This document shows positions 4,418-64,000 of a stretch of DNA of 64,000 nt, piece after piece. The notes beneath the pieces were generated by a model that worked only from the letters and a program-made list of their open reading frames with translations, was not told the DNA's origin and made no database searches. How positions within the stretch are numbered: position 1 is the stretch's first letter; every line of letters begins with the position of its first letter. The stretch comes from Nemertoderma westbladi. Its lineage: Eukaryota > Animalia > Xenacoelomorpha. A program made the position numbers and the translations under genes. The stretch covers positions 1 through 64,000 of the forward strand of contig JAUCBJ010000476.1 of the NCBI GenBank assembly GCA_032718475.1. The letters run 5' to 3'.

Positions 4418-4595
4418 GTCCCCCTTAAAAATTTTCAAATTTTTACACGATATCTGGGCTTCCTCAAAACATCTTAAAAATTTCAAATAATCGAAGGAAC
4501 ATCTTGTCCCACTCAAATAATATTAATCTATGGCCTTTATATTTTACCTCGGTGGACGAACAGGACATACAAAACAACGATTACACACAGGACAT

Positions 4596-9538: not shown

Positions 9539-9646
9539 GGAATTGGTTGAACTTTGTGCGCTGATGTTGCCACCTTTAGATTTTGGTCGGTCGGTGTGGC
9601 TACCAGAGCTCTCACTACTCGCAGGGTCCTTGACACTCTGTTTCGA

Positions 9647-12600: not shown

Positions 12601-12737
12601 ATACGTGTAGATGTAAGAGGTGACTTACCAGACTGTGTGGATACATCAGATTCCGAAGCTGAATGAATTTCGTCGTCCATTTGAACACCTTTGTTGTCCA
12701 TATTTGTATCCAAATTAAATAAAGGTGTCGTCTTCAA
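9647..12737 (-). CDS. gag: BEL/Pao Gag with long low-complexity N-terminus; frameshift near 10476 and in-frame TAA at 9647-9649 before Pol
   Basis: LPRPEPTKFSGD...EKLQYLLQYTSGKP BEL Gag core is split across two frames; Cys/His knuckles CPCC..H...C, CFRC....H....C, C....C...H...LH. Confidence 0.85.
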
Positions 12738-12922
12738 AATTAAAGTCTAGCTACGGTAGTTAGAATCGCCTAAATAGACTGTAATACATACCAACTTGGC
12801 TACAAAAGCTTAGTAACGTGGTATAGTAAAGAATTACTAAGAAATAAAATAATTCATATACAATTTAATTTATTTATTTATAATTGTAAATTTCATAGAG
12901 TTTTATTTGAGTTTTCCCAAAC

Positions 12923-13613
12923 TGTAAGAGCGGTTTCTATGCTCTTGTGTATAAAACAATAAGATGATCTATGTGATTGTAATATGTTCAACTATAGTTG
13001 GATTTCACCCAGTTTACACGGTTACGTCCCATAAAGAAGAATAATTTGTTTATTTGATTGGGAATTAGGAGCATATTTATTATAGAAAATATATAAGATA
13101 ATAATATACGATTATAAGCGGTAAGGGATAATAAGATAACGGAAACATAAGAACATTAATACATAATAAGAGATCTAATAATATAAACGTAAAATATCGT
13201 AAGAGTCAAGAATACAATGTAATAAAGAGTGTTAATAGGGGGAGTTTCCGTTTGGGAAACTGCGGAATGAGACCGACTATATTGAAATGAGTAATGTTGA
13301 GCTCGGTAAGCTGTAGAAATACAGTGAAGTAATAATAGGGGTGACAGTGTGGTGGGCCTTGATTGGTTAATGGGTAATAAAAGGATTGTAGCGCAGTGGA
13401 GATACCTACCTAATATAGCTGAACAGAAGTGAAGGGAAGAATACAGCTGTTTATCTGTATAGGATAAACGGCTGTGAATCGGGGCAGCCAATAATGGTCG
13501 AATGAGTATGTTGGAGATGAGATAGATATTGGTTTGCAACAATAAGCTGGGAGAATGGGCGGTGATGTAATGATAATATATTTTTTATTGTTTGAGAGAG
13601 ACCCGCCACTACA
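12923..13613 (-). repeat. 5' LTR of BEL/Pao element
   Basis: Direct repeat of 3727..4417, followed on the minus strand by non-tRNA PBS GTTTGGGAAAACT. Confidence 0.95.
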
Positions 13614-31858: not shown

Positions 31859-33799
31859 TTTTTAGGAAATTCCACTGTAATAATAAATAATGTAATTATT
31901 CCGTCGCCGAATAACCGGTCGCTAAAAACACTCGTTCTTCTTCTGGGTTACCTTATCTCCTTATGATTTATTATAGCTAATGTTTTTTTGTTATTTTTAG
32001 TGTTCTAGAAATATGTAAGCTATTATTTAAAACCAAAAAAGTTACAGATCATCTTTTAATTTGTTAACGTTTTTAAACATTTGACCAACCGATTAGTTAT
32101 TTGTTGAGTCATATTTTACGCCTTCAATCATTAGCTACAAGCGTTTAAAAAAGCGTTTTGTACCATTCCCACTGGAATATATTCAGCTTGTTGTTGTCTT
32201 CAAAACAATTAATAAACAAACAAGTGGTAATATAATAATATCGACAATATTTGGCATTTCTATGAGTAGCCCATTTTTAAGAAATTTTTAATCTATTTTT
32301 TTTTGATTTTATCTTTTTTTATTATATAATATGGTATGTTCTAGCCAAAACAAAAACAACTATATTTCATGTGCGACCAATCTGCGCTGGAGAGGTTTTT
32401 GCAATTGCGGTCAATGTGCACAACTATCCGTTTCTCATTAGCTAAAATAATTAATGGGAGAACACTTGTCAGTATATTAAATGAGAGCATCATAATAAGT
32501 AAGTTCTAGAAAAGAAAACATCATTAACAACGTCTCAATAAATTGAACCGCAAATCTTCCATAATTCCGAATTAATCTTGCACCATTATTGGGCCATGTC
32601 AGATGATAAATTTCAAGAGTAAATAATACAAAAATCAATTAAAACATATTATATTTTGGATTACTGTTGTTGATTTTAGGTGTAATTAAATAAAATAACA
32701 CCATACGATGTAACAATAATCGAATCAAATATTTTGGAACAAGGGTTGCTGTTGTTACAGATAGGGGGGGAAAGTGGACGTAATAAAAAATACAAAAATA
32801 AATACAACAATACATACAATAGTTTATTGTTTAAAAATTAATTAAAAATGGGGTACCTCCTATTCATATCGTGCAACGGCCCATTCATTTATATTATTCA
32901 TTCATATATATTTAACTCAGTTCATTATCAATAAAAATTATTACAAAAGGGTGTACGATACGGATCCGTTCCCAGAAAGAGTTCTTCTAGAAAATCTTTT
33001 GTTTTCTAGATATGTTATACAATGCAAATATTGGTTGTTATTCCTTCCAGAATATTACATTATAGCGCGGTCTGCCATAGGTATATATCAATTCATTCAA
33101 ATAGAAATAGTTCTTGGGCTCGGAAAGTATCTACTATCTGAATGAAGACCTCAAAAAGGACTTATGTTCGATTGCCACACGTACAGTAGTACTACAGTAT
33201 ACTGCAGTTTTGTTTCTTGTATAGGCCTACTGTGTAACTAATTCTTCTTCTACCCTAGAAGAGTGATCCATAAATAATTCTACATGATCAGATATAATAT
33301 TTGTAAATAATTTTCAGTCCCAATTAGAAAACACAATACTATTATTAACCATTATTATTATTTTAACTTCATAGCAATTAAATAATTTATTTAAATATAT
33401 TAGTAACATAGTAATAGAAACATTATTTGGAGTCCATCAATAAATATACAAATTGCCGAAATCGGCTAAATATGTAAAACTTAAATATATATTATTATAA
33501 ATTATTTATATATTTATATTTATGAAGTATTATTTAGTAACCCCTACATAAATATTCATAATTATCATGCAAATATCATTCAGTTCAGTTATTGCATCCT
33601 GCAATATTTTATAATTATTTTATTAATAAATGTTTATATGTTTATCGTTAAATCTTTAAATCATTATCGTTAAATGTTTATTTATCGTTAAATCTTTAAA
33701 TTTTATCGCTAAATGTTTATCATTAAATGTTTAAATGGTTATTGTTAAATGTTTAAATTGTTATGTTATTATGTTATTATGTTCATAGTTTAATGATAA

Positions 33800-35130
33800 A
33801 ATGCTGCAGCCTAGCCCATCCCTGGCTTTCATCCTTAACTGGTCGATAAATGGGAACCAAGGCAACTTTGGAAACAGAGTGGAAGGGTTTACTGTGGAAG
33901 ATCACTACTACTACTAGGATCGGCATGCTGCATTGCAGCTGCATTTTTAAGAATGCTGTGCCGGCTTATCGACAAAATTGCACCGCCACAACTCCCTATC
34001 ACCTATGACATTTGCTAGATCATCCGCATCTTCAAGGCCAGTGTCCTTTAAGATGCGTCTCAAGAAAGTCATGGGCTGTCCAACATTCTTATTCACTCCA
34101 TGAGGCTGCCAAAGTACAAGATTATGCACTGGCTGGTCCTCACGGCGAAAGCAATGTCCTGCAAAGCGGAGGCGATTTCGTTCTAGTGTCAAGCTTGGGG
34201 GAACCAATGAGACACCTCCAATGTTATATAGTGTCTCGTTGGAGATGTGTGCATTGTACTTGACACAATGAACCCGGCGTAGCATTCTTGTGAATGTGCC
34301 ATCCAGAGATTTGGTGTCCTCAGCAGTTAGAGCCCAGCATGGACTCCCATAGAGGAGTACTGGAACTACTGCTGCTCTAAATAATCGGACCTTAAGTTTC
34401 CGATTAATTCTCGGTGACTTCCAAATCCTGGAAAGCCTATTCAAGGCTGCCCATGCCTTTCCCTTACGTATTCGAAGGTCCTCACCTGACTTCCGGATCC
34501 GTGATCCCAGGTAACAGAAGTCATCCACATGCTTAAGCATACCATCTTTTGGGCTTATGCTCATCCGATCATAGACTTGCTGAGGACTTTCAAAGTTAAC
34601 TGTCAAAATTTTGGTCTTTCTGGAGTTAATAAAAAGACCAACACTAGAAGCAGCATGTTCTAATGAGCTGAGGAGCCGTTGGGTTCCCTCTAGTGATTCT
34701 GAGAGTACTCCTAAGTCATCAGCAAAGTCTAGATCAGTTAGGTACTTGGCAGGGTTTCCCCTACTTCTGGAGCCAGTAGGTGGAGTTATCATCACCCCAT
34801 CATCATTATGATGATCTAAGGACATGCGTAGAACATAGTCAACAACAATTATGAACAAGAATGGTGCAAGTGTGTCTCCCTGGAGGACGCCCCATAACAC
34901 TTCAAATGGTTCTGTGTCACCGTCAACAGTAGACACAAATGTTGTCGAACCATCGTATACTGATCTGATTGCTGCAATAATTTCATCAGGAATCCCATAT
35001 AATGAAAGTATGCTGAACATTCGTGAGCGAGAGACTGAATCAAAGGCCTTGAAGAAGTTTACTAGATCACCATGGTGGTGAACTGGATTTCCTTGGCTTA
35101 AGGAGCTTAAGTGATTCTCCAATTCATTAA
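33800..35130 (+). mobile_element. Nin-like SINE remnant interrupted by the RTE insertion
   Basis: GGCTTTCATCCTTAACTGGTCGATAAATGGGAACC core; continues after the RTE TSD at 35071; the empty RTE site is visible in the inverted copy near 63277-63290. Confidence 0.5.
33906..35063 (-). mobile_element. 5'-truncated RTE-clade LINE (RT C-terminal half intact)
   Basis: FKAFDSV, GVLQGDTLAPFLF, DLDFADD, FCYLGS, VLLYGS, RLRFAGH motifs; (TAG)n tail; 7-bp TSD AGATCAC (33899-33905 and 35064-35070). Confidence 0.92.
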
Positions 35131-35139
35131 TTAAATTTT

Positions 35140-36830
35140 TAAATGTTTATCGTTAAATGTTTAAATGTTTATCGTTAAATGTTTAAATGTTTATCGTTAA
35201 ATGTTTAAATATTTATCGTTAAATGTTTGAATGTTTATATATCGATAAATTAAATGTTTATCGTTAAATGTTTATCATTAAATGGTTAAATGTTTATCGT
35301 TCAATGTTTAAATGTTTATCATTAAATGTTTACATGTTTATCGTTAAATGTTTGTAGTTTTATAGTTAAATGTTTAAATGTTTATCGTTAAATGTTGAAA
35401 TGTTTATCGATAAATAATTAAATGTTTATCGTTAAAAGTTTAATTGTTTATCATTAAATGTTTAAATGTTTATCGTCCAATGTTTAAATGTTTATCATTA
35501 AATGTTCACATGTTTATCATTAAATGTTTGTAGTTAAATGTTTATCGTTACGTGTTGAAATTTTTATCGTTAAATGTTGAAATGTTTATCGTTAAATGTT
35601 GAAATGTTTATCGTGAAATGTTGAAATGTTTATCGTTAAATGTTAAAATGTTTATCGTTAAATGTTTAATTGTTTATCGTTAAATGTTGAAATGTTTATC
35701 GTTAAATGTTTAAATGTTTACCGTTAAATGTTTAAATGTTTATCGTTAAATGTTTAAATGTTTATCGTTAAATGTTTAAATGTTTATTGTTAATGTTTAA
35801 ATGTTTATCGTTAAATGTTTATTGATAAATGTTTAAATGTTTATCGTTAAATGTTTATCGTTAAATGTTTATCGGTAAATATTTATCGGTAAATGTTTAT
35901 TGATAAATGTTTAAATGTTTATCGTTAAATGTTTATCGTTAAATGTTTATCGTTAAATGTTTATCGGTAAATATTTATCGGTAAATGTTTATTGATTAAT
36001 GTTTATCGTTAAAAGTGTAAATATTTATAGTTAAATGTGTAAATGTTTATCATTAAATGTTTATCATTCAATGTTTAAATGTTTATCATTAAATGTTTAT
36101 ATGTTTATCATTAAATGTTTAAATGTTTATCATTAAATGTTTATATGTTTATCATTAAATGTTTAAATGTTTATCATTAAATGTTTATATGTTTATCATT
36201 AAATGTTTAAATGTTTATCATTAAATGTTTATATGTTTATCATTAAATGTTTAAATGTTTATCATTAAATGTTTATCGATAAATGTTTACATATGTTTAT
36301 CATTAAATGTTTACATGTTTATCATTAAATGTTTAAATGTTTATCATTAAATGTTTATCGTTAAATGTTTACATATGTTTATCATTAAATGTTTACATGT
36401 TTATCATTAAAGTTTTAAATGTTTATCATTAAATGTTTATCGTTAAATGTTTACATATGTTTATCATTCAATGTTTAAATGTTTATCATTAAATGTTTAC
36501 ATGTTTATCATTAAATGTTTATCGTTAAATGTTTACATATGTTTATCATTAAATGTTTACATGTTTATCATTAAATGTTTAAATGTTTATCATTAAATGT
36601 TTATCGTTAAATGTTTACATATGGTTATCATTAAATGTTTACATGTTTATCATTAAATGTTTAAATGTTTATCATTAAATGTTTATCGTTAAATGTTTAC
36701 ATATGTTTATCGTTAAATGTTTACATATGTTTATCGTTAAATGTTTACATATGTTTATCGTTAAATGTTTACATATGTTTATCATTAAATGTTTAAATAT
36801 TTATCATTAAATGATTAAATGTTTATCAAC
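35140..36830. repeat. AT-rich minisatellite (AAATGTTTATCGTT / AAATGTTT variants)
   Basis: Direct reading; also at 33627-33770 and inverted at about 62008-63210 and 63780-63940. Confidence 0.95.
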
Positions 36831-41926: not shown

Positions 41927-43895
41927 TCTTGGTTTTACATAGTAACAGATAAAGTTGGCAATATGTTTTTCAATCGTGTTGTAAATGTGTGGAACAGCCT
42001 GTCCAATGACGTAGTTAATTCGCATAGCCTTGTCTGTTTTAAAACCAAACTCCGTAAATGTGATTTTAGCTCATATTGTAAATTTGATAGAAATCTGTGA
42101 ATTCCATAATTTTATTGTTATTGTAGAGTTGTGTACATTTTATTGTTGAGTTGTGTACATTTTATTGTTATTGTTGAGTTGTGTACATTTTATTGTTATT
42201 GTTGAGTTGTGTACATTTTATTGTTATTGTTGAGTTGTGTACATTTTATTGTTATTGTTGAGTTGTGTACATTTTATTGTTATTGTTGAGTTGTGTACAT
42301 TTTATTGTTATTGTTGAGTTGTGTACATTTTATTGTTATTGTTGAGTTGTGTACATTTTATTGTTATTGTTGAGTTGTGTACATTTTATTGTTATTGTTG
42401 AGTTGTGTACATTTTATTGTTATTTTTGAGTTGTGTACATTTTATTGTTATTGTTGAGTTGTGTACATTTTATTGTTATTGTTGAGTTGTGTACATTTTA
42501 TTGTTATTGTTGAGTTGTGTACATTTTATTGTTATTGTTGAGTTGTGTACATTTTATTGTTATTGTTGAGTTGTGTACATTTTATTGTTATTGTTGAGTT
42601 GTTTACATTTTATTGTTATTGTTGAGTTGTGTACATTTTATTGTTATTGTTGAGTTGTGTACATTTATTGTTATTGTTGAGTTGTTTACATTTTATTGTT
42701 ATTGTTGAGTTGTTTACATTTTATTGTTATTGTTGAGTTGTGTACATTTTATTGTTATTGTTGAGTTGTGTACATTTTATTGTTATTGTTGAGTTGTGTA
42801 CATTTTATTGTTATTGTTGAGTTGTGTACATTTTATTGTTATTGTTGAGTTGTGTACATTTTATTGTTATTGTTGAGTTGTGTACATTTTATTGTTATTG
42901 TTGAGTTGTGTACATTTTATTGTTATTGTTGAGTTGTGTACATTTTATTGTTATTGTTGAGTTGTGTACATTTTATTGTTATTGTTGAGTTGTGTACATT
43001 TTATTGTTATTGTTGAGTTGTGTACATTTTATTGTTATTGTTGAGTTGTTTACATTTTATTGTTATTGTTGAGTTGTGTACATTTTATTGTTATTGTTGA
43101 GTTGTGTACATTTTATTGTTATTGTTGAGTTGTGTACATTTTATTGTTATTGTTGAGTTGTGTACATTTTATTGTTATTGTTGAGTTGTGTACATTTTAT
43201 TGTTATTGTTGAGTTGTGTACATTTTATTGTTATTGTTGAGTTGTGTACATTTTATTGTTATTGTTGAGTTGTGTACATTTTATTGATATTGTTGAGTTG
43301 TTTACATTTTATTGATATTGTTGAGTTGTGTACATTTTATTGTTATTGTTGAGTTGTGTACATTTTATTGATATTGTTGAGTTGTTTACATTTTATTGAT
43401 ATTGTTGAGTTGTGTACATTTTATTGTTATTGTTGAGTTGTGTACATTTTATTGTTATTGTTGAGTTGTGTACATTTTATTGTTATTGTTGAGTTGTGTA
43501 CATTTTATTGTTATTGTTGAGTTGTGTACATTTTATTGTTATTGTTGAGTTGTGTACATTTTATTGTTATTGTTGAGTTGTGTACATTTTATTGTTATTG
43601 TTGAGTTGTGTACATTTTATTGATATTGTTGAGTTGTTTACATTTTATTGATATTGTTGAGTTGTGTACATGTTATTGTTGAGTTGTGTACATTTTATAA
43701 TTAGTATCCTTTGTGTTGTTAAATACATATTTTATTTTTACTCACTGCTGGAACATAAGTCGCTTCGACATAACCAGACAGTGTTTGTTTTTAACCAGTT
43801 TTCATATTTTAAATAAATAACTAATGTGCGTGCATTTTATAATTCGTGCGCTGTTTCAACATATGTAGATGTATCTGCATTAAATAAAACTATTA
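41927..43895 (+). mobile_element. 3' fragment of a CR1-group LINE with an expanded minisatellite in its 3' UTR
   Basis: FFNRVVNVWNSLSNDVVNSHSLVCFKTKL at about 41965-42051; AATAAA and (CTATT/TTA) tail; candidate TSD CTATTG (41921-41926 and 43896-43901). Confidence 0.7.
42110..43698. repeat. 28-bp minisatellite, about 56 copies
   Basis: Unit GTGTACATTTTATTGTTATTGTTGAGTT, highly homogeneous. Confidence 0.97.
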
Positions 43896-50522: not shown

Positions 50523-51069
50523 TGTGACGGGATCCACGAAGGATCCCGGTTTATCCGGTTTGTCGATCTACGCGTCCCCGCCGTGTGTGAAAGGTAAAAA
50601 GAGTTTGCGTTGTTCGTCGTATATAATGTTCGGGCATATAGATAGATATAGATAATATATTGTAATGTAAAGCTGTGAATAATATTATATGGAAGGCGGG
50701 AGACGGTGATTGAAGTCCCGGTACTTCCCTAGCTAAACTAACCTAACTAACACCAAATAGCACACTGAGATAACTGAATAACTGATTGCTGGTGCCTAAT
50801 AATATACTGCACGGTTTGGCCTTGCTACAGTACCTAGCCGATGCTTCCCCCCCATTGGCTAATATCCCTGTTGGCGCCCTTTGGAGTGTTCCCGTTCACT
50901 CCAGCTATTCTCTCTCTGTTAGGGGTTTGGCCCCTGACCTTTATTGTTCGTTTCTCCTTCCCACTTTGTTGGGGTGGCACGAGTGGTTGATTACCCAACC
51001 TCGTGGCCCCCAATATTGCTTAATGGTTTACTTTATGGGGTTGGGTGAGGCGGAATTGATTCGCTAACA
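50523..51069 (-). repeat. 3' LTR of the second BEL-type element
   Basis: + strand TGTGACGGGATCC...GCTAACA, homologous to 57542..58061. Confidence 0.85.
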
Positions 51070-51651
51070 CTCCCCCCATGCTATCTTCCCGGTGAGAAGA
51101 TAGCATCAACCTCTAAGTGCGCTTCAATTCCGCTGGATCCCGATCTAGTATCGGGTGTGGGGTGGGATTATTTTCTTGGAGTCGGCTTTCCAGGCCGCTC
51201 CCTATGGGTATGATGTCACTACCCTCTGGCATCTCGTGTCGGGCCGATCGTGCACTTCTCTCACACAATTTTTGTTTCCCCGACATTCTCACCACTCTAG
51301 CTCCGCTCTCTAACTCAACTCGCTCTTATTCTCTCCCCACACCTGAATCGCACTCTTCTCTCTCGCCAACAGCTCTTCTCACTATCTCCTCCCTACTCTC
51401 TGCCACTCCCTAAGGCCCTAATCTCTAATGCTACCCCTGTGCTATCATATTATCTACCTACTACTCACTTGGTAACTATCTAACTCTCTTACTCTCTACT
51501 AACTCTCCGACTCTAACTAGCTCTACTAAGTCTAACTAACTCCTACTAATTCTCTACTAACCTCTAGCTCTAACTCTACTAACCTCTAACTGTACTCTCT
51601 GCTAAGTCTACTAACTCTTTCCTAACTCTGACTAAAACCCTCCATCTACGT

Positions 51652-52193
51652 GGCGCTTGTGGTGCCCACAACCATTCTACTACTACTTCTACTCTGCTAC
51701 TATCTTTCTAACTCTACTAACTCTCTACTATCTCTAACTCTACTAGCTGGCACCCTATGTGCCCGCCTCTACTACTCTACTGCCTGGCACCCTATGTGCC
51801 CTCTCTACTACTCAACTACCTCTCTAACTCTACTACCTGGCACCCTATGTGCCCGTCTCTACCACTCTACTACCTGGCACCCCATGTGCCCTCTCCACTA
51901 CTGTACTCTATCTACATCTCCACCTCCACTAATACCTCTATCTACGTGGCGCTTGCGGTGCCCACAACCACTCTCTGCTACTACTTTCTACGTGGCGCTT
52001 CTGGTGCCCACAACCCCTCTCTTACTACTTTCTACGTGGCGCTTATGGTGCCCACAACCACTCTACCACTACTACTTTCTACGTGGCGCTTCCGGTGCCC
52101 ACGACCCCCCTACTACTACTCCTTTCTACGTGGCGCTTCCGGTGCCCACGACCCCCCTACTACTACTCCTTTCTACGTGGCGCTTCCGGTGCC
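51652..52193. repeat. Array of 11 GGCRC-N5-GTGCC hairpin motifs in a CTA-rich background
   Basis: Loops ttgtg, cctat x3, cccat, ttgcg, ttctg, ttatg, ttccg x3; spacing mostly about 37-53 bp. Confidence 0.8.
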
Positions 52194-52425
52194 CACGACC
52201 CCCCTACTACTACTCGTGGCATGACAATATGCCACACTCCCTTACCCCGCCGCCTTCTAACTCTACTCTCCTTCTACTAACTTATCTCCTGTTCTACTAC
52301 TTACTATCTCTTCTAACTATTATTTAATTAATTTTATTATTTATTTTTTAATTAAATAATTATTTATATGTGGGAAGGGCGTCTCGCCCTCATTCCCACC
52401 CCCCTCAGTCCAAAATCTTGGACGA

Positions 52426-55400
52426 CTAAACTTTCAGGTGCCCCTTCTTCCAGTAGGCACTCTCCCACTGCCCTCCTATACGTCCTCTTACTCTTCGCCA
52501 CGCTCTCCCCGCCAACTCCAACTGACCAGGAATTGGCTCTCCCTCTTCCGCCACCCCAAAATCGGGTCTCTCCGCCGCCTTCTTAACCATCTCGTCTCCT
52601 GGCATCAAAATGCCATCTCCCTCCTTGTTATCTCCCGGTGGCAGAATGAATAGAAAGTGAAAGAACAGGCAAAACAGAAGGTACAACAGCAGTCCTACCC
52701 CTCTCCATCCTGCCCCCCCTCTCGACCTCCCCCCCGTCGGCACGCCTCTCAACCGGACCGGCGTCTCCTCCGGACACTCCCCCGGACACCCCTCCGGACT
52801 ATTGTCCTCCTGACACTTCACCGGACACTCCTCCGGAGTGTTGTCCCCCGGACACCCCGCCGTCCGCTCCCCTCCATCCCCACACCGACACCCGCTGGGA
52901 AGTCTATTATCCTCCGCCCACTCTCTTATTGTTACTTTCCTGTCTGGCTCTACTATCTCCTCCGGCTTCTTATCTTCGTCCTCTGTGTCTACGGTGCCTG
53001 GTAACATGCACCCTGATGTCTCTGTCACACTGCATGGGATCTTGGTTTTAACTGGGCCGCTAAGCGTCCATCCGAACGGCGTGAGGATCGCCGTCGGGTC
53101 CCGCTGCCTGTCTTCGCCGAAGACCGTCCGTGTTCTCTCGTGGGCCGTCGGGCAGTCCATTCCTACTATAATGGACACCTTCCTAACGTCCACCTTTGGT
53201 ATTGAGAAATCGATACCGTCCAGGAATCTATACTGCTCGACCTCAATGTTGGTTGGTCGCCTGGCGTTGATATTTATCGATTCTATGACGTGGATGGGGT
53301 CGATCGTCGCCCCATAGTCGCATCCCGGTGCAATCGCTGCTATCCTGCACCGCCCCGTCCTCGTCTCCAGGACCTCATCTTTACTCGAGACGGTAGTTAC
53401 CGCCATTCTATTCGGCCTCGTCTTTAGCCCTATCTCTTCGGCCACCCAGTTCTCCACCAGCGTGAAGGCTGCTCCGCTGTCGACCAGCATTAATGTCGTT
53501 ACTGATCGACCGCCCTCTCCTGATATCTTTACTGGTACTACCCCGAGTAGTACTTTTCTCTTCTTCTCCTCTTCTGTCATGCTTGTAGCCATTGTTTGGC
53601 CTCCAGTCTCCTCCTCTCTTGCTGCTGTTTCTCTACACTCTCCGGGTCTGTGTCCTTCTACCACACATCGATGACATAGTCCGTTTGCGTCTGTGTAGGC
53701 TACACGATCTTGTTTGGGCAACGCTTGCCAGTGCTTACAACTCCTGGTCTTATGGGTTCCGTCCCGGTGTAATTGACATTCGAATCCTGGATTATAGCGT
53801 TCCCTGTATAGTCCCTCACGTATCGCGCGTAGGTTTATATGTACCGATTTAGTGTTTTGGTTGTCTGTACTCGGCCTACTGGGTATATTGGGATTGTGTT
53901 TATTTATGGTGTTATTTTCTTTCTGTCCCTGCCACGGTGTGGCCCTACTCCCAGCTAACTGTGGGCTTGTAGCCCCCTGTGTGGCCGCGTGTGGTAGCGA
54001 CTCTCTTACTCTTGAGAATGGATCCGTCGGATTATGTTCGGGTCCAGGCCTGTTGTATTCGGTCTTTGGTGCCTTCCCCAAACTATCCTCACTATAGACT
54101 GGGTCTGTAATTAATTCGGCTTCATAGTTTAGGAAGCTCGACATTTCTTCTAGGCCCGGTTCCGCACCTTTCTTCTCTCGAGTGGAGAAGGCGATCTTCC
54201 TCCACTTTCTCCGCAGCCAGATCGGCAGTGCCTGCGCTATCGTGGTGATGTTGTTAGACGCGTTGAGTTCGTATGGTGCGTCTAGCGTCTTTAACACGAT
54301 TAACGCCTTCTCGACCTTGTTCGCAAAGGTCTTTATGCTAACGGGATTATCCTGTAGGCCACCCGATGTTATGCCTCTCAGGGTTTGCCGGATGATCTTG
54401 GCTGGGTGCCCGTACTCCCTATCTAACGCCCGCCATGCTGTCGTGAAGCCGCCCTCGATGCCCTGGTATTGCCTCACGATGTCGTATGCTGGGCCTCCTG
54501 TATATACTTGCAGATATTTTAGGCACTCCGCCTGCGTCAAGTTCTTACTTAATATCTCGTTGCTGTACATGCGCCGAAACTGCAGGTATTCTTCCGGCCT
54601 ACTTCCGTCGAATTTAAATGGCTCGACTGGTGGTAACTCGATCCTGGTCTTTAATGCATCGATTAATGTGGCCATTCCCATCGCTTGCGCTTCCAATGGG
54701 TTCGATGGATGTTGTACAGACTCTCCTATTGGGTGCGGTCCGTTCGTCCTATCTGTTGTTGATTTTATTTGTTGCGTCGGATATATCATTGGGGGTAACG
54801 GCCCCCTCCATATTTCCGTGTCGCACGACCTATTCTCGTCCAAGGGGTTCGATGTTCTTGCTCCTATTGGGGTATATTGTTGATATTGTGATGGGGGAAT
54901 GTCACCCTGTCCCCCCCCCCCCCCCCCCCACCGGTATGTTTGGTACTGGGGTTGATGTTAATATATTGGGGCCCATACATCTATCTACAATAACTCTCCC
55001 CTCCCCTGGATATATGTTATGTCCCTGTGTATTATAGTCATGCTGCTGTACCGATATAGGCCTACCTACCTCTCGCCTACCTACCGGTATGTACTCCGCG
55101 ACTTCCGGGTTTAATCCCGTCGTTCGCGCTACCCTATCGCCTACTCTATCTCTCCCAGCATGGCCTATAATAGTATGTGCAGTAAGGCCTACAGTATGTC
55201 CTGCAGTCTGCATGTGCCCTTCCGAACCGAAGTTTATTCTTCGCGAATCTCGAATCTCCCCGCGACTACCGTACTCTCGATCGGCAGCTATATCACGTCG
55301 GGAAGTTTCCCTTCGATCCCCTCTCCTGCTCTCTTCTTCGTACCGGTACGTCCTGTACCGCTCTCCTGGTGTGCGGTGCGTTTCTCCGGGGCGACGGCAA

Positions 55401-57468
55401 TCTCCCGAAGTTCGACCCCACTGACTCCCTAACTCCATCTCTACTATCGACGGCTCGCTATCCGTCCTCGCTCTCCGGTTGCTCCTAGCAACGACTCTTC
55501 TATTATCTTCACTTCTTCTCTCTTCGACCTCTCGGTTAAACTCTACTAATCTTCTTCTATCTTCGACCTCTCTATTAAACTCTACTAATCTTCTCTCTTC
55601 TGACTGGGCTCGACGTTCCGTCGCCCGCCCTCTCGCGACGTCAACCTGTCTCTCTCTGCTCGATCGCACGCCGCTGGGGATACTCGCAATCCCCCTATTA
55701 CTCTCCATCGCCGGGTGTTGCGGTTTACCTAATTCGGCCCGCGCATTATCCGCCGACGCCTGTGGGACACTCTCTGCCCCCCCTCTCTCGCTACTAATCT
55801 CTCGCGGTGGGGCGCCCGTAGCCCCCCCCCCCCCCCCCCCCACCCGCCACTTCTAACTTCACTATCTCTTACTACACTTCTGCGTCCCTCTTGTCGGACA
55901 TTTTCTACCCCCCTTCTCTCGCCACTAATCTTCCGTGATGGGGCGCCCGTAGCCCCCCCCCCCCCCCCCCCACTCGCCACATCTAACTTCACTATCTCTT
56001 ACTCCACTTCTACACCCCTCTCTAGTCGACACACTGTCTCTACTACGGCTGGCTCTATTCACCCCCGCCTCTCTCTCTACTACTGCGAGGCCTACCAGGC
56101 CCACCTCGGGTTGGCTCAACCCCGCTACCTCCTGCCTACCAACTACGTGGCCTACCAGGCCGCCGTTGGGTTGGCTCAACCCCGCCACTTCCTGCCTACC
56201 AACTACGTGGCCTACCAGGCCGCCGTCTGCCGGGCTAAACACATCTGACGCGTTCACATTAATAGCACCATTCCCAATATTATTTGTTAAATCAATTAAA
56301 TTATTAGAATTTGAAACGGGATTATTATTTAAATTATTTAAATTAGAATTGTTATTATTTTCAAAATTTAAATTGTTATTCGAATTATTTGAATTATTCT
56401 GGATATTTGAATTAATATTATTACTTGAATTTAAATTTAAATTACTACTACCAGGTAAAACATTTCCTGTAATAAAGGATTAGGGTTATTTACTACGGTA
56501 CTATTAATACTAACATTTCCTAACGTACTACTACTACCCCCCTCGCCCGTACGGCTACTGTACGTGTACCGCACGCTCTGTTCTCTTGTCTCACGCTCTT
56601 CGCGTTCACTCTCTTGCTCCTTCCCTCTCCCCATTATCCGGTCTAATTCTTTCACCCTTAATTTATATGCCAGATTTATCTTCCGCATCCGTCTTTCTTT
56701 TGCGGAGGATGTAGCAGACTTATCGGTTGCGACGGACTCCCACCGCCCCTCCGTCCTACTAACTTTCCCCCGCCCTCCGGGGTTCTCGCTGACCGACGAG
56801 ACCGAATCCTCGGAGCTAGCCTCGGATTCGCCCTCGTGCGGTCCCGCCCAACGCACCAACTTAACTTCCCTGGCATCGACTAAGTATGGCCCTATGTACA
56901 CTGCACCAGGCCCCATACCCCTACGTTCCCATAGCCCAAACAGTTCGATGGCAACCCCTCTCGCTCTCTCGCTGGCTAGTTCTCCCTGCCCAGAACGCAC
57001 TAGGTAATCAAAGTATCTGTTCGACTCACCTAGTCGTCTCCTCAACTTTACCTGGTCTATCTCAGCCCCTCCTCTAGCTTCTTTCAGTTGTTCCCGGGTC
57101 GCGGCGTAGGCTCGTCGAAGTCGATCGGAAACCCCGACGTCCTCGTTGCCGACCTCTCCTCCATCTCTCCGGGTCCGACGTCGTACCGGCGGCTCCACCG
57201 TTGCCGTTCCAGTGGGCCGTCCGTCGCCCTCGGCCTGTGGCTGGCCGGCGACATCGGTACGTCGACCCTCGCTCCGCGTCGACTCGTCTTTCTCCTTTTT
57301 GACTCCCGACTCGTCCTCTCGCTGTAGAAGGCCCCCTTCATCTTGGATCGCCGGATCTTTCGTCGACGGATCCGGCGTCGTGGGTTGATACCGTCTCGCC
57401 GTGGCCTCGCGGATCGTTAGATCGTCGTCCGGGGTCCGCGGCGGTATCGCTTCTCCTCCTCTACTCAT
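52426..57468 (-). pseudogene. gag: BEL/Pao Gag-protease; long N-terminal region broken at poly-C tracts; intact ORF 52426..54843
   Basis: LPPVEPFKFDG...CLKYLQVYTGGPA BEL Gag core, C..H....H....C and CHRC....H....C knuckles, LMLVDSGAAFT protease motif, AILTPFGWTLSGP, then an unrelated tail. Confidence 0.8.
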
Positions 57469-57541
57469 CTTGTCTTTGGTAGTTATCAGCCACAGTTCGG
57501 CAGGCCTAGAGTTAGGACTGTAGGCCTTGGGTAGTCAAGAC

Positions 57542-58061
57542 TGTGACGGGATCCGAGAGGATCCCGGTTTATCCGGTGTTGTTTCGTACGCGTCAGCCGC
57601 ACCGTGTGATAGAAAAGGAGTTTGTTGTTCCAGTATAGATATAATGTAGATATATAGATATGTAGGTATGATAACAGATAGCGCCAATGAGTGATGACAG
57701 GTAATATGGGTGACGGCGGTGATGGTCTTGACTGTCACCGTACTACCTGACTGTACTGGGATAACTACTACAATGACGTGATGACAGGTAATATATACTG
57801 CACGGGTTGGCCTCATTGCATTACCCAGTCGATGCTCCCCCCCTGATTGGCTAATATCCTTGTTGGCACCCTTTGGAGTGTTCCCGTTCACTCCAGCTAT
57901 TCTCTCTCTGTTAGGGGTTTGGCCCCTGACCCTTATTGTGTGTTTCTCCTTCCCATTTTGTTGGGGTGACACGAGTTATTGGTTACCCAATCTCGTGGCC
58001 CCCAATATTGCTTAACGGTTGACTTTATGGGTTCGTGTTAGCGGAATTGGATAAGCTAACA
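57542..58061 (-). repeat. 5' LTR of the second BEL-type element
   Basis: Followed on the minus strand by non-tRNA PBS GTCTTGACT. Confidence 0.85.
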
Positions 58062-61000
58062 TGCAGCGTGACCGCATGGATATAAGACGCTATTTCTCCG
58101 TCATCGATGACATCATCATCAGTCGGGTCATCAACGGGAGCGCGGGACAACGCATCCAGAATCCAGTGTTCTTTACCTTTTTTCCATTTAGTGGTAAATA
58201 CAAAGGGACTGAGTTTCGCCTTTAATGGTTGAAGGCGGGCATTGTCCGTGTCGTCTATTGTGTATCTATTAAGTATAGTTACTAAGGGCTGGTGGTCCAC
58301 AATCAGGGTGAAGTGGGGAAGGCCGAGGAGGTAGAGGTGGCATTTTTTTGTGGCCCAGGCGATGGCGAGTAGTTCCAGTTCCACCATCGCGTACCAAGAT
58401 TCTGTGTCGGTTATAAATCTGGAGCCACACTCCACTAACTTCCAGGTTTCCTCGTGCAGCTGTAATAATGCATACCCCAGGCCATTCTTCCGGGAGGCGT
58501 CGGTTTGGAGTGAAGTTACGCGTTCTGGTTCGAATGGGGCGAGCACGGGTGGAGAAATCAGTGCTCGTTTCGTGTTCTCGAATGGGTCCTCATGATCGCT
58601 GTTCCATAGGAACTCATTAGTCGACCTGAGCAAAGGACGTAGAGGCGTCATAACGGTAGAGATTTCCATCGAGAAGGAGGCTAGTTGCTCTACTAGTCCC
58701 ACGAAACTCCGTAGGTCCCTTATATTAGTGGGACATGGGAAGTCAGCGATGGCATGGACCTTCGCCGGGTCGGCCCGTATTCCGTCGGCGCCGATTATGT
58801 ATCCAGCACATTTCACCTCCCGCAAGGCAAACTGCACTTTATCGGGGTGCAGGGAAATACCCGTCTCCCGGCATCGGAGAAGGAAACGGCGTATACTGGC
58901 GAGGTGGGCGTCGATCGTATCATCGAAGAGGAGGACATCGTCGACCAGTTTGAGGAGGTTAGGAAGGTCATGAAGGGCATCGTCGCCCCGTCAATTATAT
59001 TCTTCCCCACTTGATATTAAACCCATTACACTTCGAAGATGTTTGTACCTCCCCCAGGGGGTTATAAATGTGGTTAGAAGTTGGGTTTTTTCCTCGAGCG
59101 GTATCTGCCAGTACCCCGATGCGGCATCAAAAACCGAAAAGTACTTTGCAGTTGTCGACACACCGGAAACTACTACCCTGGGACTAGGGGTGGGGTAGTA
59201 GGGTCGTTTGACCTGGCTGTTTAAGTGATGTAAATCTACGCAGAGTCGTAATTTACCATTTGGTTTATGGACAACAGTCATCGGGTGGGCCCAATCGGTG
59301 GGCTCTGTAACCCATTCGATGATCTGTCGGCACTCCATATCCCCGAGGAGCGACTGAACTTCATCTTGCAATGCAAACGGAATTGGTCGACAACCATTGG
59401 CATGGAAGGGTGCCGCGTCATCCTTAAATTCCACCGTCATAGGGTCCCCCACCATGGTTGTAAGGGGTGTCGAATTATTATCGAAAACATCTGCGAATTG
59501 GGCAAGGATCTCATCGCGAGAACGAGAGATAGTTGTCCCGGGGTCGGGGGCCGTTGCGGAGTTTATCCGACGTTGAAGGAAATCCGGAGGGAGTATATCT
59601 AGTCCCTTGAGAGCAGCGAGGTTTAATATAAGGCCATCCACCTCCGGGGAGACTACGATTTTTGCCAATGTTGAACCTCCATCGTAATCGATCCGAGCAC
59701 GGAATAAGCCGTCGACATCGATCGGGAGGTGGTTGGTGGCCCGGAGGTCGGCTGTCGGGTATGGGGTTAAGTCGTCCAGTCGACCACCCATTGCTGCGTA
59801 TTCGTCGTATCCCAACATAGTTGCAGCAGCGCCGCCGTCTGGGAGTACGCGGCCCCGAACTGTTCCGAAAATTCTACCGGGTTGAAAGTCTGTGCGTCGG
59901 ATATCAACAGTTATGTAAGGAAGAGGACAGGTAGCGTCCTGTTCGTTGCGAATAGAGTTTATTCTGCTGGGTGGGAGGATGGTGGAGACTCTGTCCGACT
60001 CTCTGTGATCTGGTTTGTCGCTGCCTTTTGTAGAACGACAGACTGCAGCGAAATGTCCAGTTGCCTGACATTTATCGCATATATTATTACTCGCAGGACA
60101 GGTCGCCCGCGATGCAGCGTGTTGTCGGCCGCAGAATTTACAGTTGCGCTCCAAGCTGGGTGCGGGAGAGTGAGAGTTTTTGTTGGATTTTCTGTAACGG
60201 TAAGTGGAGCGGCCGTGTGGTCGACGCGTAGATTTAATCGCTGTCACCGGGGCGCCGCGCCCTATTATTGAGTCGTTCTTCTCTCCAACCTCCATTGATT
60301 GACACATCTGAACGCATTCGGCCAGTGTTGGTTGCGGAAGCTTTTTTAGTAGTTCCGTTCGTGTCTCTGACGAACGTATCCCAACCAAGATTTGTGTGAC
60401 GATCTGCTCGTCCCAACAGTCTGTACATAGTTCTGCATCATCCGCCAAGAATTCCAGTGCGACGTGGAAGTTATCGAAAGATTCCGTTGGGCCCTGTTTG
60501 TGATCGTGGAAGCGAATACGATCGATCGCAACACTTCGTTTAGATCGAAGGTGGGCCTGTAATGTGTCCATGACATAGTCCGTTGTGGTGTCATCTCCAT
60601 CGAGGTCTACGTGCAGAGTTACCTTGAGAGTCTGTTGTAGATTGCGTCCCAAAGCAGAAGCAAGGGCATAAACTTGTTCACTGCAGGTGAAAGAGTGAGT
60701 CTGTTGTCGCTGACAGTGGATCTTCCAGGCTTCCCGCCAACGACGAAATGCAGAGAATTCTATATCTCCGTCTATCTTTTCCACGTCCTTTATATCTAGG
60801 ACGCGACGCCGAGGTTGGGGGTTATCCACGAGGTCGAGTCGTTCAGCGGCGGCATAGGCGGGGGCTGTCAGTACGCCATGCTGCGGTTGTAAGTCACCCG
60901 CTGAGTCATCATCTGTGTTAGCTGGTTGAACCGCTGGTCAGCGCGCACGTCAGATTCTGCGCGCTGTTGGTCTGCCGCCAGTTGCTGTCTTAAGAGTTGG

Positions 61001-61522
61001 CGTCGGAGGTTATCGATCTCGAGTTTGTATTCCAATTCTCCGGTACCGATAGCGGGTTCAGTGGGCTCGGACATCCAGTCTGCGTCGTCGCCTGTGTTGT
61101 CCCCGCTGACCGATTGTGTGGGTTCACCCTGATGAGACATTGTGAGTTTTCGCGATCAGTAAACCTGTAGATTGCTGTATAGACGTTTAACATACATACT
61201 GCGCCATGTTGTGAGATGATAAGGTGGGGAAATATCAAGGTGTATTTCGTACCACTACGCTCAGATTAAGTTTATTTTATGATAACAAGATAATTAATAA
61301 TAACGTAGGTTGTTAGACGTCAGTATCAGTATGGTAATACTGGTACTATGAGTAATAATAAAAAATAGGAAAATATAAGTAATATGGTACTGACATGCAG
61401 CAGTACAGCAGAAAAGTGTTAATACCGCGGTACAGCAGAAATGTTACCGAATATGAAAGTATGTTAATGAGATAGATAGTCTATAGGCTACGTGTATGGC
61501 AATTAGTAATGATATCATCACA
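58062..61522 (-). mobile_element. Gypsy (Mag-like) LTR retrotransposon, 3'-truncated, pseudogenised
   Basis: 5' LTR about 61207..61522, PBS TGGCGCAG, double CCHC knuckle, PDGGA protease, RT (RLCVD, DAASGYWQ, LVDD) with an in-frame TGA at 58991-58993, RNase [11 protein letters not shown]; cut off before integrase. Confidence 0.9.
61207..61522 (-). repeat. 5' LTR of the Gypsy element (single LTR only)
   Basis: + strand TGTTGTGAGAT...ATATCATCACA imperfect terminal inverted repeat next to the PBS at 61199-61206. Confidence 0.7.
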
Positions 61523-64000
61523 TACAGTATATAGTAAAATGTCACCTTTCGCTTTCACGTCTGTATATCAATGACATGCAGATAATATCACCAGTAGTTC
61601 TATGGGTGATTTACGATATTTCAACCTTACAATTTGCTTACTTAGTTGTGTTACTGTTACTAAATTGCCTCAAATTAGGGCTTATGGCTCTCTTATCTCA
61701 CTCTCTGAACTTGGTTGATTACAAGCATTTGCAAGCTGCCTGTTTTGTTTAACATTTATTTCACAATAAATATTTTATTTTCCAGAGATTTTCTTATCTA
61801 ATTTCCCCTGAAAGGGAACACGAGATGATATGTAAACATGGCTATGTGCGTCAGTATCAATTAAGTCACTGGACGGCGCTAGGGGGTCAGCCAATGAAAC
61901 ACGTTCACATAACAACCCAAGACCAACCTCTTATAGTGAGCAGTAGTTATCCGCATACTACAGAAGCACTACCTTCCTAACTAACTATTACTTTAAGTAG
62001 TAGTTGATAAACATTTAATCATTTAATGATAAATATTTAAACATTTAATGATAAACATATGTAAACATTTAACGATAAACATTTAATGATAAACATTTAA
62101 ATATTTAATGATAAACATGTAAACATTTAATGATAAACATGTAAACATTTAATGATAAACATATGTAAACATTTAACGGTAAACATTTAATGATAAACAT
62201 GTAAACATTTAATGATAAACATATATAAACATTTAACGATAAACATTTAATGATAAACATTTAAACATTGAATGATAAACATTTAACGATAAACATTTAC
62301 ATATTTAACGATAAATATTTACACTTTTAACGATGAACATTAATCGATAAACATTTACCGATAAATATTTACCGATAAACATTTAACGATAAACATTTAA
62401 CGATAAACATTTAACGATAAACATTTAACGATAAACATTTAAACATTTAACGATAAACATTTATCAATAAACATTTAACGATAAACATTTAAACATTTAA
62501 CAATAAACATTTAAACATTTAACGATAAACATTTAAACATTTAACAATAAACATTTAAACATTTATCAATAAACATTTAAACAGTTAGCCATAAACATTT
62601 AAACATTTAACGATAAACATTATATTTAACGATAAACATTTAAACATTTAACGATAAAGATTTAAATATTTAACAATAAACATTTAAACATTTAACGATA
62701 AACATTTAACGATATACATTTAAACATTTAACAATAAACATTTAACGGTAAACATTTAAACATTTCAACATTTAACGATAAACATTTAACGATAAACATT
62801 TCAACATTTAACAATAAACATTTCAACATTTAACGATAAACATTTCATCATTTAACGATAAACATTTAACGAAAAACATGTGAACATTTAATTATAAACA
62901 TTTAAACATTGAACGATAAACATTTAAACATTTAATGATAAACATTTAAATATTTAACGATAAACATTTCAACATTTAACGATAAACATTTAAACATTTA
63001 ATGATAAACATTTAAACATTTAACGATAAACATTTAATTTATCGATATATAAACATTCAAACATTTAGCGATAAACATTTAATTTATCGATATAAAAGCA
63101 TCCAAACCTTTATCGATAAACATTTAACGATAAACATTCAAACATTTAATGATAAACATTTAAACATTTAACGATAAACATTTAAACATTTAACGATGAT
63201 AAACATTTAAAAATTTAATTAATGAATTGGAGAATCATTTAAGCTCGTTAAGCCAAGGAATGCCAGTTCACCACCATGGGTGATCTTCCACAGTAAACCC
63301 TTCCACCTTGTTTTCCAAGGTACCTTGGTTCCCATTTATGAATTTAATTTAATTACGCCTGGTATGGCACAGTAAAATATATATAAACAATAAAACAATA
63401 TATAATTGAAATTCAAATTCATAATATAAATAAATTAATTCATTAAAATGGTATGTGTCTAGCATATTATTCAGTCGGAGGCGGCCCACACTCTGATTGG
63501 CTGGGCGTTGTGTGGGCAGTTTAGTAGGTGGTACAAGGGGGCAACGTTATCACAAAGATTACAGCGGCACGAGGCACAAGGGGAGTGAAAGCCCTGAGTT
63601 TTGCAGATTTTATGGTGAAAACCGTGTATAGACACTCTCGTAGTTACGTGACGCAATTTATTCATAGCAACGGTCCACCCTCGCGACTGTATAAATGGTT
63701 CCCATTTATCGACCAGTTAAGGATGAAAGCCAAGGATGAGCTAGGCTGCATCATTTTATCATTTAACTATGAACATTGAGACATTTAATGATAAGCATTT
63801 AAACATCTAACAATAACCATTTAACATTTAATGATTTTATCGATAAAATTTAAAGATTTAACGATAAATAAACATTTAACGATAATGATTTAAAGATTTA
63901 ACGATAATGATTTAAAGATTTAACGATAAACATATAAAGATTTTATTAATAAAATAATTATAAAATATTGCAGGATGCAATAACTGAACTGAATATGATA
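61523..64000 (-). repeat. Right arm of the large inverted duplication (runs off the window)
   Basis: Reverse complement of 33574..37358, lacking the RTE insertion and carrying its own LINE insertion. Confidence 0.9.
63340..63695 (-). mobile_element. Short 5'-truncated non-LTR retrotransposon insertion
   Basis: 14-bp TSD TGGTTCCCATTTAT (63326-63339 and 63696-63709), absent from the left duplicate; C-terminal Cys/His ORF end (CRCNLC...HLLNCP) and (AAATT)n-like tail. Confidence 0.75.

What the first reader, a model, noticed from the sequence alone, without database searches (positions are those of the whole stretch)
57533..57733. BEL/Pao element 2 independently shows the same self-complementary PBS
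Seen: directly after its 5' LTR the minus strand reads GTCTTGACT (57541-57533). The LTR contains (C)AGTCAAGAC (57733-57725), a perfect 9-bp complement, again starting at CAGT and ending flush with the LTR edge. The sequence differs completely from element 1, so this looks like covariation of one architecture across two families. A chance 9-mer in a 520-bp LTR has a probability of about 0.2%. The neighbouring Gypsy element has a normal TGG tRNA PBS, which serves as an internal control. Caveat: the best TATA (about 57789-57798) is ~55-60 nt upstream, so the motif may not be at the very 5' end.
Basis: partly seen in the sequence, partly recalled or inferred. Interest (0 to 1): 0.75.

Follow-up and report, generated by a model that had tools for sequence, protein, structure and literature searches.

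The report
Self-complementary primer site in BEL/Pao relic
A broken, reverse-transcriptase-less BEL/Pao retrotransposon copy carries, exactly where a tRNA primer site should sit, nine bases that pair perfectly with a stretch of its own long terminal repeat, so its family likely starts DNA copying with its own RNA, which textbooks do not describe for this group.

Summary
On the minus strand the 520-nt 5' LTR (58061-57542) is followed at once by GTCTTGACT (57541-57533). Its perfect complement AGTCAAGAC lies in the LTR at 57733-57725, after a C (CAGT). Only 55 of 20000 shuffled LTRs reach 9 nt.

Element 2 is not an intact element:
- It keeps BEL/Pao gag and protease but has no RT, RNase H or integrase.
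- It has no target-site duplication.
- Its 3' LTR has an unrelated central part without the motif.

Support from elsewhere:
- Element 1, intact and young, has the same layout with different letters (10 nt).
- In 12 independent BEL/Pao loci from metagenome contigs, 8 have 9 nt or more of own-LTR complement at the primer site, contiguous or made by a GT-AG intron. Mismatched LTR/leader pairs give 11 of 182.
- DNA contigs of the same organism show the primer-site segment to be far less repeated than its flanks, which argues against a host tRNA primer.

Best reading: a Tf1-like self-primer/PBS pair, inferred and not shown. No RNA data exist, and the TATA box lies 64 nt upstream, so the motif may not be the RNA's 5' end. 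This scan noted the same signature earlier in other genomes. I found no paper describing it for BEL/Pao.

The parts
57542..58061 (-). 5' LTR of element 2 (520 nt, TGT...ACA). It abuts a truncated Gypsy RT/RNase H ORF at 58062.
   Evidence: Alignment with the 3' LTR; BLAST within the window; Pfam hits for the 58025-58990 ORF.
57792..57797 (-). TATA-like box TATATA, 64 nt upstream of the motif. It marks the end of the U3 part shared with the 3' LTR.
   Evidence: Pattern positions. Homology to the 3' LTR stops at offset 273.
57725..57733 (-). Putative self-primer AGTCAAGAC, preceded by C (CAGT). It is the perfect complement of the post-LTR 9-mer.
   Evidence: Most related copies in DNA contigs read T at 57730, which gives a G-U pair.
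57548..57565 (-). Predicted U5 hairpin GGGATCC-TCTC-GGATCCC, just before the LTR end. The stem is kept in the 3' LTR with a different loop.
   Evidence: Folds; alignment; very high contig depth.
57533..57541 (-). Primer-binding site candidate GTCTTGACT, flush with the LTR end. No TGG.
   Evidence: No variant of 10% or more within the 9 nt, while variants start at 57532 and 57531.
56437..57468 (-). Leader ORF of unknown function (ATG 57468-57466), with no Pfam family.
52426..54957 (-). BEL/Pao gag (DUF1759), zinc knuckle and aspartic protease ORF, 843 aa. RT, RNase H and integrase are missing.
   Evidence: Pfam. 36% identity to element 1 gag (E 2e-34) and 29% to the N-terminus of element 1 pol (E 4e-15).
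51070..51090 (-). Polypurine tract GGGAAGATAGCATGGGGGGAG, directly before the 3' LTR.
   Evidence: Sequence read.
50523..51069 (-). 3' LTR (547 nt). U3 is 88% identical to the 5' LTR over 275 nt and the last 96 nt are 80% identical. The central ~160-180 nt is unrelated and lacks the motif.
13250..13261 (-). Element 1 putative self-primer AGTTTCCCAAAC in its 691-nt 5' LTR (13613-12923).
12910..12922 (-). Element 1 primer-binding site candidate GTTTGGGAAAACT: 10 perfect pairs, then one bulged A and 2 more pairs.
61198..61206 (-). Gypsy neighbour's tRNA-type primer site TGGCGCAGT (internal control).

Best explanation
The nine bases after the 5' LTR (GTCTTGACT) and their perfect complement inside the LTR (AGTCAAGAC) are most likely the primer-binding site and self-primer of a BEL/Pao family that would start reverse transcription with its own RNA, as Tf1 does, and not with a tRNA.

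Shown:
- The two 9-mers, their position and their rarity under shuffling.
- The BEL/Pao gag-protease identity of the element.
- The same layout in element 1 and in independent BEL/Pao loci.

Inferred steps:
1. Transcription starts in the LTR at or upstream of the motif.
2. The motif pairs with the site flush with the LTR end.
3. An RNase H cuts after C57725. It must be supplied in trans, because this copy has no RT.
4. RT extends the 3' end through U5/R. Strong-stop DNA would be about 183 nt.
5. That DNA jumps to the 3' R.
6. Plus-strand synthesis copies the RNA primer back into the primer site. This would keep primer and site complementary and let each subfamily carry its own pair.

This particular copy is a dead composite, so here the pair is a relic.
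For: 1. Anchored 9-nt perfect complement at offset 0: 55/20000 shuffled LTRs reach it.

2. Element 1 is intact, with 100% identical 691-nt LTRs, the TSD TTTGT, Peptidase_A17, integrase and DUF5641. It has a 10-nt anchored complement with different letters, reached by 39/20000 shuffles.

3. There is no TGG within the first 27 nt after the LTR.

4. In 12 BEL/Pao loci from metagenome contigs whose LTR 3' end is defined by an LTR pair, 8 have 9 nt or more of own-LTR complement at offsets 0-6. Mismatched LTR/leader pairs give 11/182 (Fisher p 7e-7). At 11 nt or more the counts are 4/14 against 0/182.

5. The one locus with TGG at offset 2 (L052) has no self-complement.

6. DNA contigs of the same organism show no variant of 10% or more within the 9-nt site, while variants begin right after it. 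One contig aligns only down to 57533.

7. In the same contigs the PBS/leader segment has depth about 300. The U5 end has about 70000 and the module starting at the ATG has 34000-94000. The motif bin is the depth peak of the variable central LTR. A host-tRNA site should be the most conserved segment, not the least.

8. Folding pairs the motif with the site at probability 0.89-1.0 when the RNA starts at A57733. The duplex is -11.8 kcal/mol.

9. Inferred primer sites start with GT in el1, el2, L016, L045, L036, L038 and L075, and in L040 in its 11-nt register at offset 5.
Against: - No RNA run was available, so the transcription start, the cleavage and the primer are all untested.
- The TATA box lies 64 nt upstream. 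If the RNA starts at offsets 296-309 of the LTR, the predicted pairing probability falls to about 0, because local hairpins win by 3.8 kcal/mol.
- Nine pairs is shorter than the 11 recalled for Tf1.
- About 94% of the contig depth at 57730 carries T (G-U pair, -9.6 kcal/mol), and about 20% has A57733 changed to T.
- The element's own 3' LTR lacks the motif. There is no TSD and no RT.
- On the harsher window-wide null, the single match has p about 1.1%.
- Contigs are too short to link a motif variant to a primer-site variant in one copy.
- 4 of the 12 outside loci show no match. Three of them have doubtful LTR ends.
Confidence: 0.6

Rival explanations
1. The LTR-leader pairing is real and selected, but it serves another purpose, such as packaging, dimerisation, translation control or strand transfer. 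Priming would be done by something else.
For: The pairing is enriched in BEL/Pao loci, but nothing here shows a free 3' end or extension. With an upstream start site the motif sits in a local hairpin.
Against: The 3' end of the complement is flush with the LTR edge, or within 0-5 nt of it in relatives. That is the geometry a primer needs and a generic structure does not. No alternative primer site (TGG) exists nearby.
Confidence: 0.15
2. The match in element 2 is chance: a 9-mer that happens to recur inverted in a degenerate, mosaic copy.
For: The window-wide null gives 1.1% for such a 9-mer. The 3' LTR lacks it. Most related copies differ at one motif position.
Against: - The match is at offset 0 exactly and occurs in 55/20000 shuffles.
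- The only other BEL/Pao element in the window shows the same layout (39/20000).
- The pattern is enriched in independent loci.
- The 9 nt are invariant among contigs, while the next bases vary.
Confidence: 0.15
3. A host RNA primes at 57541 and downstream: an internal tRNA segment or tRNA half as in copia, or another small RNA.
For: The ICTV profile states that Belpaoviridae are tRNA-primed (PMC8742986, passages read). No tRNA set of this organism could be searched. Locus L052 has a TGG-type site.
Against: - There is no TGG.
- The post-LTR sequences of 14 elements are all different.
- The primer-site segment is about 100-300 times less repeated than both flanking modules. This is the opposite of what an invariant host primer predicts.
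Confidence: 0.07

Closest known systems
Tf1/Tf2 of Schizosaccharomyces pombe, Tj1 of S. japonicus and the Tf1/sushi and Tcn1 groups (Ty3/gypsy): self-primed reverse transcription
   Same: There is no tRNA-type site. The site is complementary to a segment of the element's own LTR transcript. A stem-loop lies in U5 between primer and site. The 3' end of the complement is placed so that extension copies the LTR end. The mechanism is described in PMC4600332 (passages read).
   Different: - It belongs to another superfamily: BEL/Pao gag and protease.
- It has 9 pairs, against the 11 recalled for Tf1.
- The motif is probably not at the very 5' end of the RNA, since the TATA box is 64 nt upstream.
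- Nothing has been shown experimentally.
TAR lineage (Houba, Osr-1) of plant Ty1/copia, for which self-priming is predicted
   Same: A second superfamily in which a self-complementary site replaces the tRNA site, inferred from sequence only (PMC6317226, passages read).
   Different: Those are plant copia elements, with no relation to BEL/Pao proteins.
Belpaoviridae as described by ICTV (Tas, Pao, BEL, roo and others)
   Same: LTRs with TG..CA ends, a polypurine tract, DUF1759 gag and aspartic protease.
   Different: The ICTV profile gives an 18-nt site complementary to tRNA-Arg or tRNA-Gly and replication primed by a host tRNA (PMC8742986). Here there is no TGG and the site pairs with the element's own LTR.

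Membership tests
BEL/Pao (Belpaoviridae) | Gag with the DUF1759 domain and a BEL/Pao-type protease | tested here: met
   DUF1759 E 8e-11 and Asp_protease_2 E 4e-6. 36% identity to element 1 gag and 29% to its protease.
BEL/Pao (Belpaoviridae) | Pol with RT, Peptidase_A17 region, RNase H, integrase and DUF5641 | tested here: not met
   Absent from element 2 and present in element 1. Element 2 is therefore a deleted, non-autonomous derivative.
BEL/Pao (Belpaoviridae) | Matching LTR pair with a target-site duplication | tested here: not met
   The LTRs share only U3 (88%) and the last 96 nt (80%). The flanks are CTGCA and CTTTA.
BEL/Pao (Belpaoviridae) | Primer site complementary to the 3' end of tRNA-Arg or tRNA-Gly (ICTV profile) | tested here: not met
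   No TGG after the LTR. The host's tRNAs could not be searched.
Self-primed LTR retrotransposons (Tf1 type mechanism) | Primer site complementary to a segment of the element's own LTR, adjacent to the LTR end | tested here: met
   9 of 9 nt at offset 0; rare in shuffles.
Self-primed LTR retrotransposons (Tf1 type mechanism) | The complement lies at the 5' end of the mRNA | not testable with these tools
   No RNA run was listed. CAGT at 57734 could be an initiator, but the TATA box is 64 nt upstream.
Self-primed LTR retrotransposons (Tf1 type mechanism) | RNase H cleavage of the RNA duplex and extension of the freed 3' end | not testable with these tools
   This needs cDNA intermediates.
Self-primed LTR retrotransposons (Tf1 type mechanism) | U5 stem-loop between primer and site | tested here: met
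   A predicted 8-bp hairpin at 57565-57548 appears in all folds. The stem is kept in the 3' LTR. This is prediction only.
Tf1/sushi group (phylogenetic) | Ty3/gypsy chromovirus pol | tested here: not met
   The proteins are BEL/Pao.

The most novel reading that the evidence does not exclude
A large clade of BEL/Pao retrotransposons of marine invertebrates does not use tRNA. It primes reverse transcription with a piece of its own LTR transcript. In some families that piece exists only after an intron inside the LTR is spliced out. In others, such as elements 1 and 2 here, it is ready-made. Primer and site travel as matched, fast-diverging modules between otherwise conserved LTR and leader blocks.
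Probability: 0.5. Interest if true: 0.8.

Novelty: new variant of a known kind. Interest (0 to 1): 0.6.

Why it matters
Self-priming is established for the Tf1/sushi group and predicted for a few copia lineages. The third LTR superfamily, BEL/Pao, is described as tRNA-primed. If BEL/Pao elements self-prime, three things follow:
- Automated annotation that asks for a tRNA primer site will miss or mislabel them.
- tRNA-fragment-based host defence would not touch them.
- The way primer and site stay matched, and in relatives the apparent need for splicing, becomes a testable question about how reverse transcription is started and regulated.

This particular copy adds a second, sequence-independent example in one window. 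It also shows that the site segment is hypervariable among subfamilies.

Tried and rejected
- **RNA runs.** No RNA holder was listed. Only DNA contigs could be laid, and they are too short (about 50-360 nt) to link motif and site in one copy.
- **tRNA.** ARAGORN found no tRNA gene in the window, and no tRNA set of the organism was available.
- **Spliced junction in elements 1 and 2.** No GT-AG intron of 30 nt or more, or of 20 nt or more, improves on the contiguous match. In element 2, CAG|GTAGTA and GACAG| lie only 15 nt apart, too short for an intron.
- **Extensions of the pairing in element 2.** GGT with a 3-nt bulge appears in the constrained fold. GGTAGT lies 11 nt upstream. Other copies read differently upstream of 57744 (loose end), so I give these extensions no weight.
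- **3' LTR against the element's own primer site.** Nothing was found.
- **Relation of the leader ORF (56437-57534) to element 1's extra ORF.** None was found.
- **Contigs with terminal repeats (L010, L039, L053, L059, L065, L070, L071, L073).** I looked at them as possible transcripts. L010 starts 18 nt into the LTR, so it is not a transcript. None was used.
- **Literature.** Searches, and passages from PMC3601003, PMC5443660, PMC6934838, PMC3286476, PMC13524379, PMC3118150 and PMC554778, gave no statement on BEL/Pao self-priming.

Full report
**What is there.** Read on the minus strand, a 520-nt LTR (58061-57542, TGTTAGC...CGTCACA) is followed directly by GTCTTGACTACCCAAGGCC. The first nine bases (57541-57533) have one perfect reverse complement in the LTR, AGTCAAGAC. 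It lies at offset 329-337 (57733-57725) and is preceded by C, so the text reads CAGT. The match is exactly 9 nt.

An anchored complement this long appears in 55 of 20000 dinucleotide-shuffled LTRs. On a harsher null of pseudo-junctions all over this repeat-rich window, it appears in 198 of 18126.

**What element 2 really is.** The 843-aa ORF 54957-52426 carries DUF1759, a zinc knuckle and an aspartic protease. It is 36% identical to element 1's gag (E 2e-34) and 29% identical to the protease end of element 1's pol (E 4e-15). No RT, RNase H, integrase or DUF5641 is present.

- A polypurine tract (51090-51070) precedes a 547-nt 3' LTR (51069-50523).
- The two LTRs share only the first ~273 nt (88%) and the last ~90 nt (80%). 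The central 160-180 nt, from just after the TATA box, is unrelated.
- The 3' LTR contains no complement of the primer site, contiguous or split.
- The 5' LTR abuts a Gypsy RT/RNase H ORF (58025-58990). The 3' flank is AT-rich non-coding DNA, and there is no target-site duplication (CTGCA against CTTTA).

Element 2 is therefore a non-autonomous BEL/Pao derivative and a composite. Most simply it arose by recombination between two related copies, though an assembly join cannot be excluded.

**Element 1 and the Gypsy control.** Element 1 (13613-3727, minus strand) has 691-nt LTRs that are 100% identical, the TSD TTTGT, and a pol with Peptidase_A17, integrase and DUF5641. Its post-LTR sequence GTTTGGGAAAACT pairs with AGTTTCCCAAAC in the LTR (13261-13250): ten perfect pairs, one bulged A, then two more pairs. 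Only 39 of 20000 shuffles reach 10 nt.

The truncated Gypsy has TGGCGCAGT after its LTR and only a 5-nt anchored complement in the 793 nt upstream.

**Evidence from the same organism.** No genome is held and no RNA run was listed. DNA contigs of four runs (three samples) were laid on the region. The summed word depth falls into blocks (figures for run X1):

| Block | Coordinates | Depth |
|---|---|---|
| U3 | 58055-57839 | 50000-200000 |
| Central LTR | 57838-57620 | 300-8000, peaking at 57710-57749 (the motif) |
| U5 end | 57620-57542 | up to about 70000 |
| Primer site plus leader | 57529-57500 | about 300 |
| Module starting at the ATG | 57466-57374 | 34000-94000 |

The two variable blocks are the ones that hold the motif and the site.

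- Within the nine site bases, no variant reaches 10%. Variants begin at 57532 and 57531 (about half the depth in X1 and X3), and one contig aligns only down to 57533.
- In the motif, about 94% of the depth reads T at 57730, giving a G-U pair with the site. About 20% has the first A changed to T.
- A site bound by an invariant host tRNA should be the best conserved segment. Here it is the least repeated one.

The contigs are too short to link a motif variant to a site variant, so true co-variation within this family could not be tested.

**Evidence from other BEL/Pao elements.** Element 1's pol finds only relatives of 45% identity or less, in corals, anemones, sea urchins, molluscs and tunicates. 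A profile of 18 such proteins brought in 79 BEL/Pao loci from metagenome contigs. In 12 of them an LTR pair defines the 3' end of the 5' LTR. The other 67 were left out for lack of a defined LTR end. Three of the 12 (L023, L055, L033) have doubtful ends.

- None has TGG at offset 0. L052 has TGG at offset 2.
- I scored the longest complement of the post-LTR sequence (offsets 0-6) in the element's own LTR, either contiguous or across a GT...AG gap of 20 nt or more.
- 8 of the 12 reach 9 nt or more. LTRs paired with another element's leader reach it in 11 of 182 cases (Fisher p 7e-7).
- With elements 1 and 2 included, the count is 10 of 14. At 11 nt or more it is 4 of 14 against 0 of 182.
- With offsets 0-3 the counts were 7 of 14 against 3 of 182.

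In five loci the complement is split by a gap with good splice signals:

| Locus | Exon 1 end and donor | Gap (nt) | Acceptor and exon 2 start |
|---|---|---|---|
| L016 | AAAGCT\|gtaagt | 77 | ttttcag\|TCAAAC |
| L045 | CCAAA\|gtaagc | 149 | ttttag\|TTCGAAC |
| L038 | AGTCG\|gtaagg | 71 | ctgtag\|AAAAC |
| L040 | AATTTG\|gtaagc | 123 | ttacag\|AAAACT |
| L072 | CATAT\|gtgagt | 79 | ttttag\|CGAA |

This reproduces a lead from earlier notes of this scan. Elements 1 and 2 have no such split.

**How it most likely works.** The geometry is that of a primer. The 3' end of the LTR motif pairs with the first base after the LTR, so extension would copy ...TCACA first.

- If the RNA starts at A57733, the minimum-energy fold pairs nt 1-9 with the site at probabilities of 0.89-1.0. 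An 8-bp U5 hairpin (57565-57548) lies between them.
- From offset 320 the probability is 0.54. From offsets 296-309 it is about 0, because local hairpins win by 3.8 kcal/mol.
- The duplex is worth -11.8 kcal/mol, or -9.6 for the majority U variant.

By analogy with Tf1 (passages of PMC4600332), an RNase H cut after the paired segment would free a 3' OH. RT, supplied in trans for this RT-less family, would then make strong-stop DNA. Plus-strand synthesis would copy the RNA primer back into the site, which would keep the two matched. All of these steps are inferred.

**Against this reading.**
- There are no RNA data.
- The TATA box is 64 nt upstream.
- There are only nine pairs.
- Most related copies have a wobble at one motif position.
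- The 3' LTR of this copy lacks the motif.

**Comparison and novelty.** Self-priming is described for Tf1/Tf2/Tj1, the Tf1/sushi and Tcn1 groups (Ty3/gypsy), and predicted for TAR/Houba/Osr-1 (Ty1/copia) (passages of PMC4600332 and PMC6317226). The ICTV profile says Belpaoviridae carry an 18-nt site for tRNA-Arg or tRNA-Gly and are primed by a host tRNA (PMC8742986).

Five full-text searches and passages of seven further papers gave no report of BEL/Pao self-priming. Subscription journals and closed supplements were not searchable. Earlier AI notes of this scan report the same signature in other genomes. I tested the splice lead on independent loci and did not otherwise rely on those notes.

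I rate this a new variant of a known kind. The mechanism is known, but the superfamily and the internal, sometimes intron-split, position of the primer are not.

**Verdict.**
- Observation: confirmed.
- Interpretation: supported as an architecture. Self-priming is likely (0.6) but unproven.
- This copy is a dead relic, so its value is as a second, sequence-independent example and for the module pattern seen in the contigs.

Noticed in passing
L016:682-1077, L045:2079-2772, L038:1-298, L040:7633-8173, L072:16-414: In five BEL/Pao loci from metagenome contigs, the complement of the post-LTR sequence is split in the LTR by 71-149 nt. The gap is bounded by GT[AG]AG and a pyrimidine-rich ...AG, so only a spliced LTR transcript would carry the 9-12-nt primer.
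   Followed up: partly
window 57541, 12922; L016, L036, L038, L040, L045, L075: The inferred primer sites start with GT (GTC or GTT), so the inferred primers end in ...AC. This holds in 8 of the 10 elements with a match, counting L040 in its 11-nt register at offset 5 (L066 and L072 are the exceptions). It may reflect a cleavage preference.
   Followed up: no
window 57374-58061: Contig depth shows conserved and variable blocks alternating. U3, the U5 end and the start of the leader ORF are repeated 100-300 times more than the central LTR and the primer-site segment between them.
   Followed up: partly
window 3727-13613 (minus strand): Element 1 is an intact, apparently young BEL/Pao with identical 691-nt LTRs and the TSD TTTGT. 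It has an extra 757-aa ORF (12746-10473) upstream of gag with no Pfam match, and its primer motif sits in a 7-bp hairpin AGTTTCC-CAAAC-GGAAACT.
   Followed up: partly
window 58025-61207 (minus strand): A Gypsy element with a TGG-type primer site is cut off inside its RNase H/integrase junction by element 2's 5' LTR. Its 3' part is not found beyond element 2's 3' LTR.
   Followed up: partly
window 57685-57707 and 57771-57794: A 24-nt segment (ATATTACCTGTCATCAC...) is duplicated within the 5' LTR, on either side of the motif.
   Followed up: no
window 51731-52248, 55761-56261: Element 2 holds tandem repeats of 47, 60, 90 and 130 nt and poly-C runs inside its internal region.
   Followed up: no
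window 41972-43800, 33600-36800, 61947-63000: A 28-bp satellite array and AT-rich 22-bp minisatellite arrays (TGTTTAAATGTTTATCGTTAAA type) occur at three places.
   Followed up: no
L052:235-405: One BEL/Pao locus has TGGTAGCAGAGCGAGG two bases after its LTR and no self-complement. tRNA-type and self-type sites may therefore coexist in the superfamily.
   Followed up: no
window 57524-57541: The post-LTR sequence can form its own hairpin, GUCUUG-ACUACC-CAAGGC, which would compete with the LTR motif.
   Followed up: partly
window 1212-2396, 30671-31861: Host-gene fragments lie on the minus strand: a WDR41-like WD40 exon and a secretin-family 7TM receptor exon.
   Followed up: no
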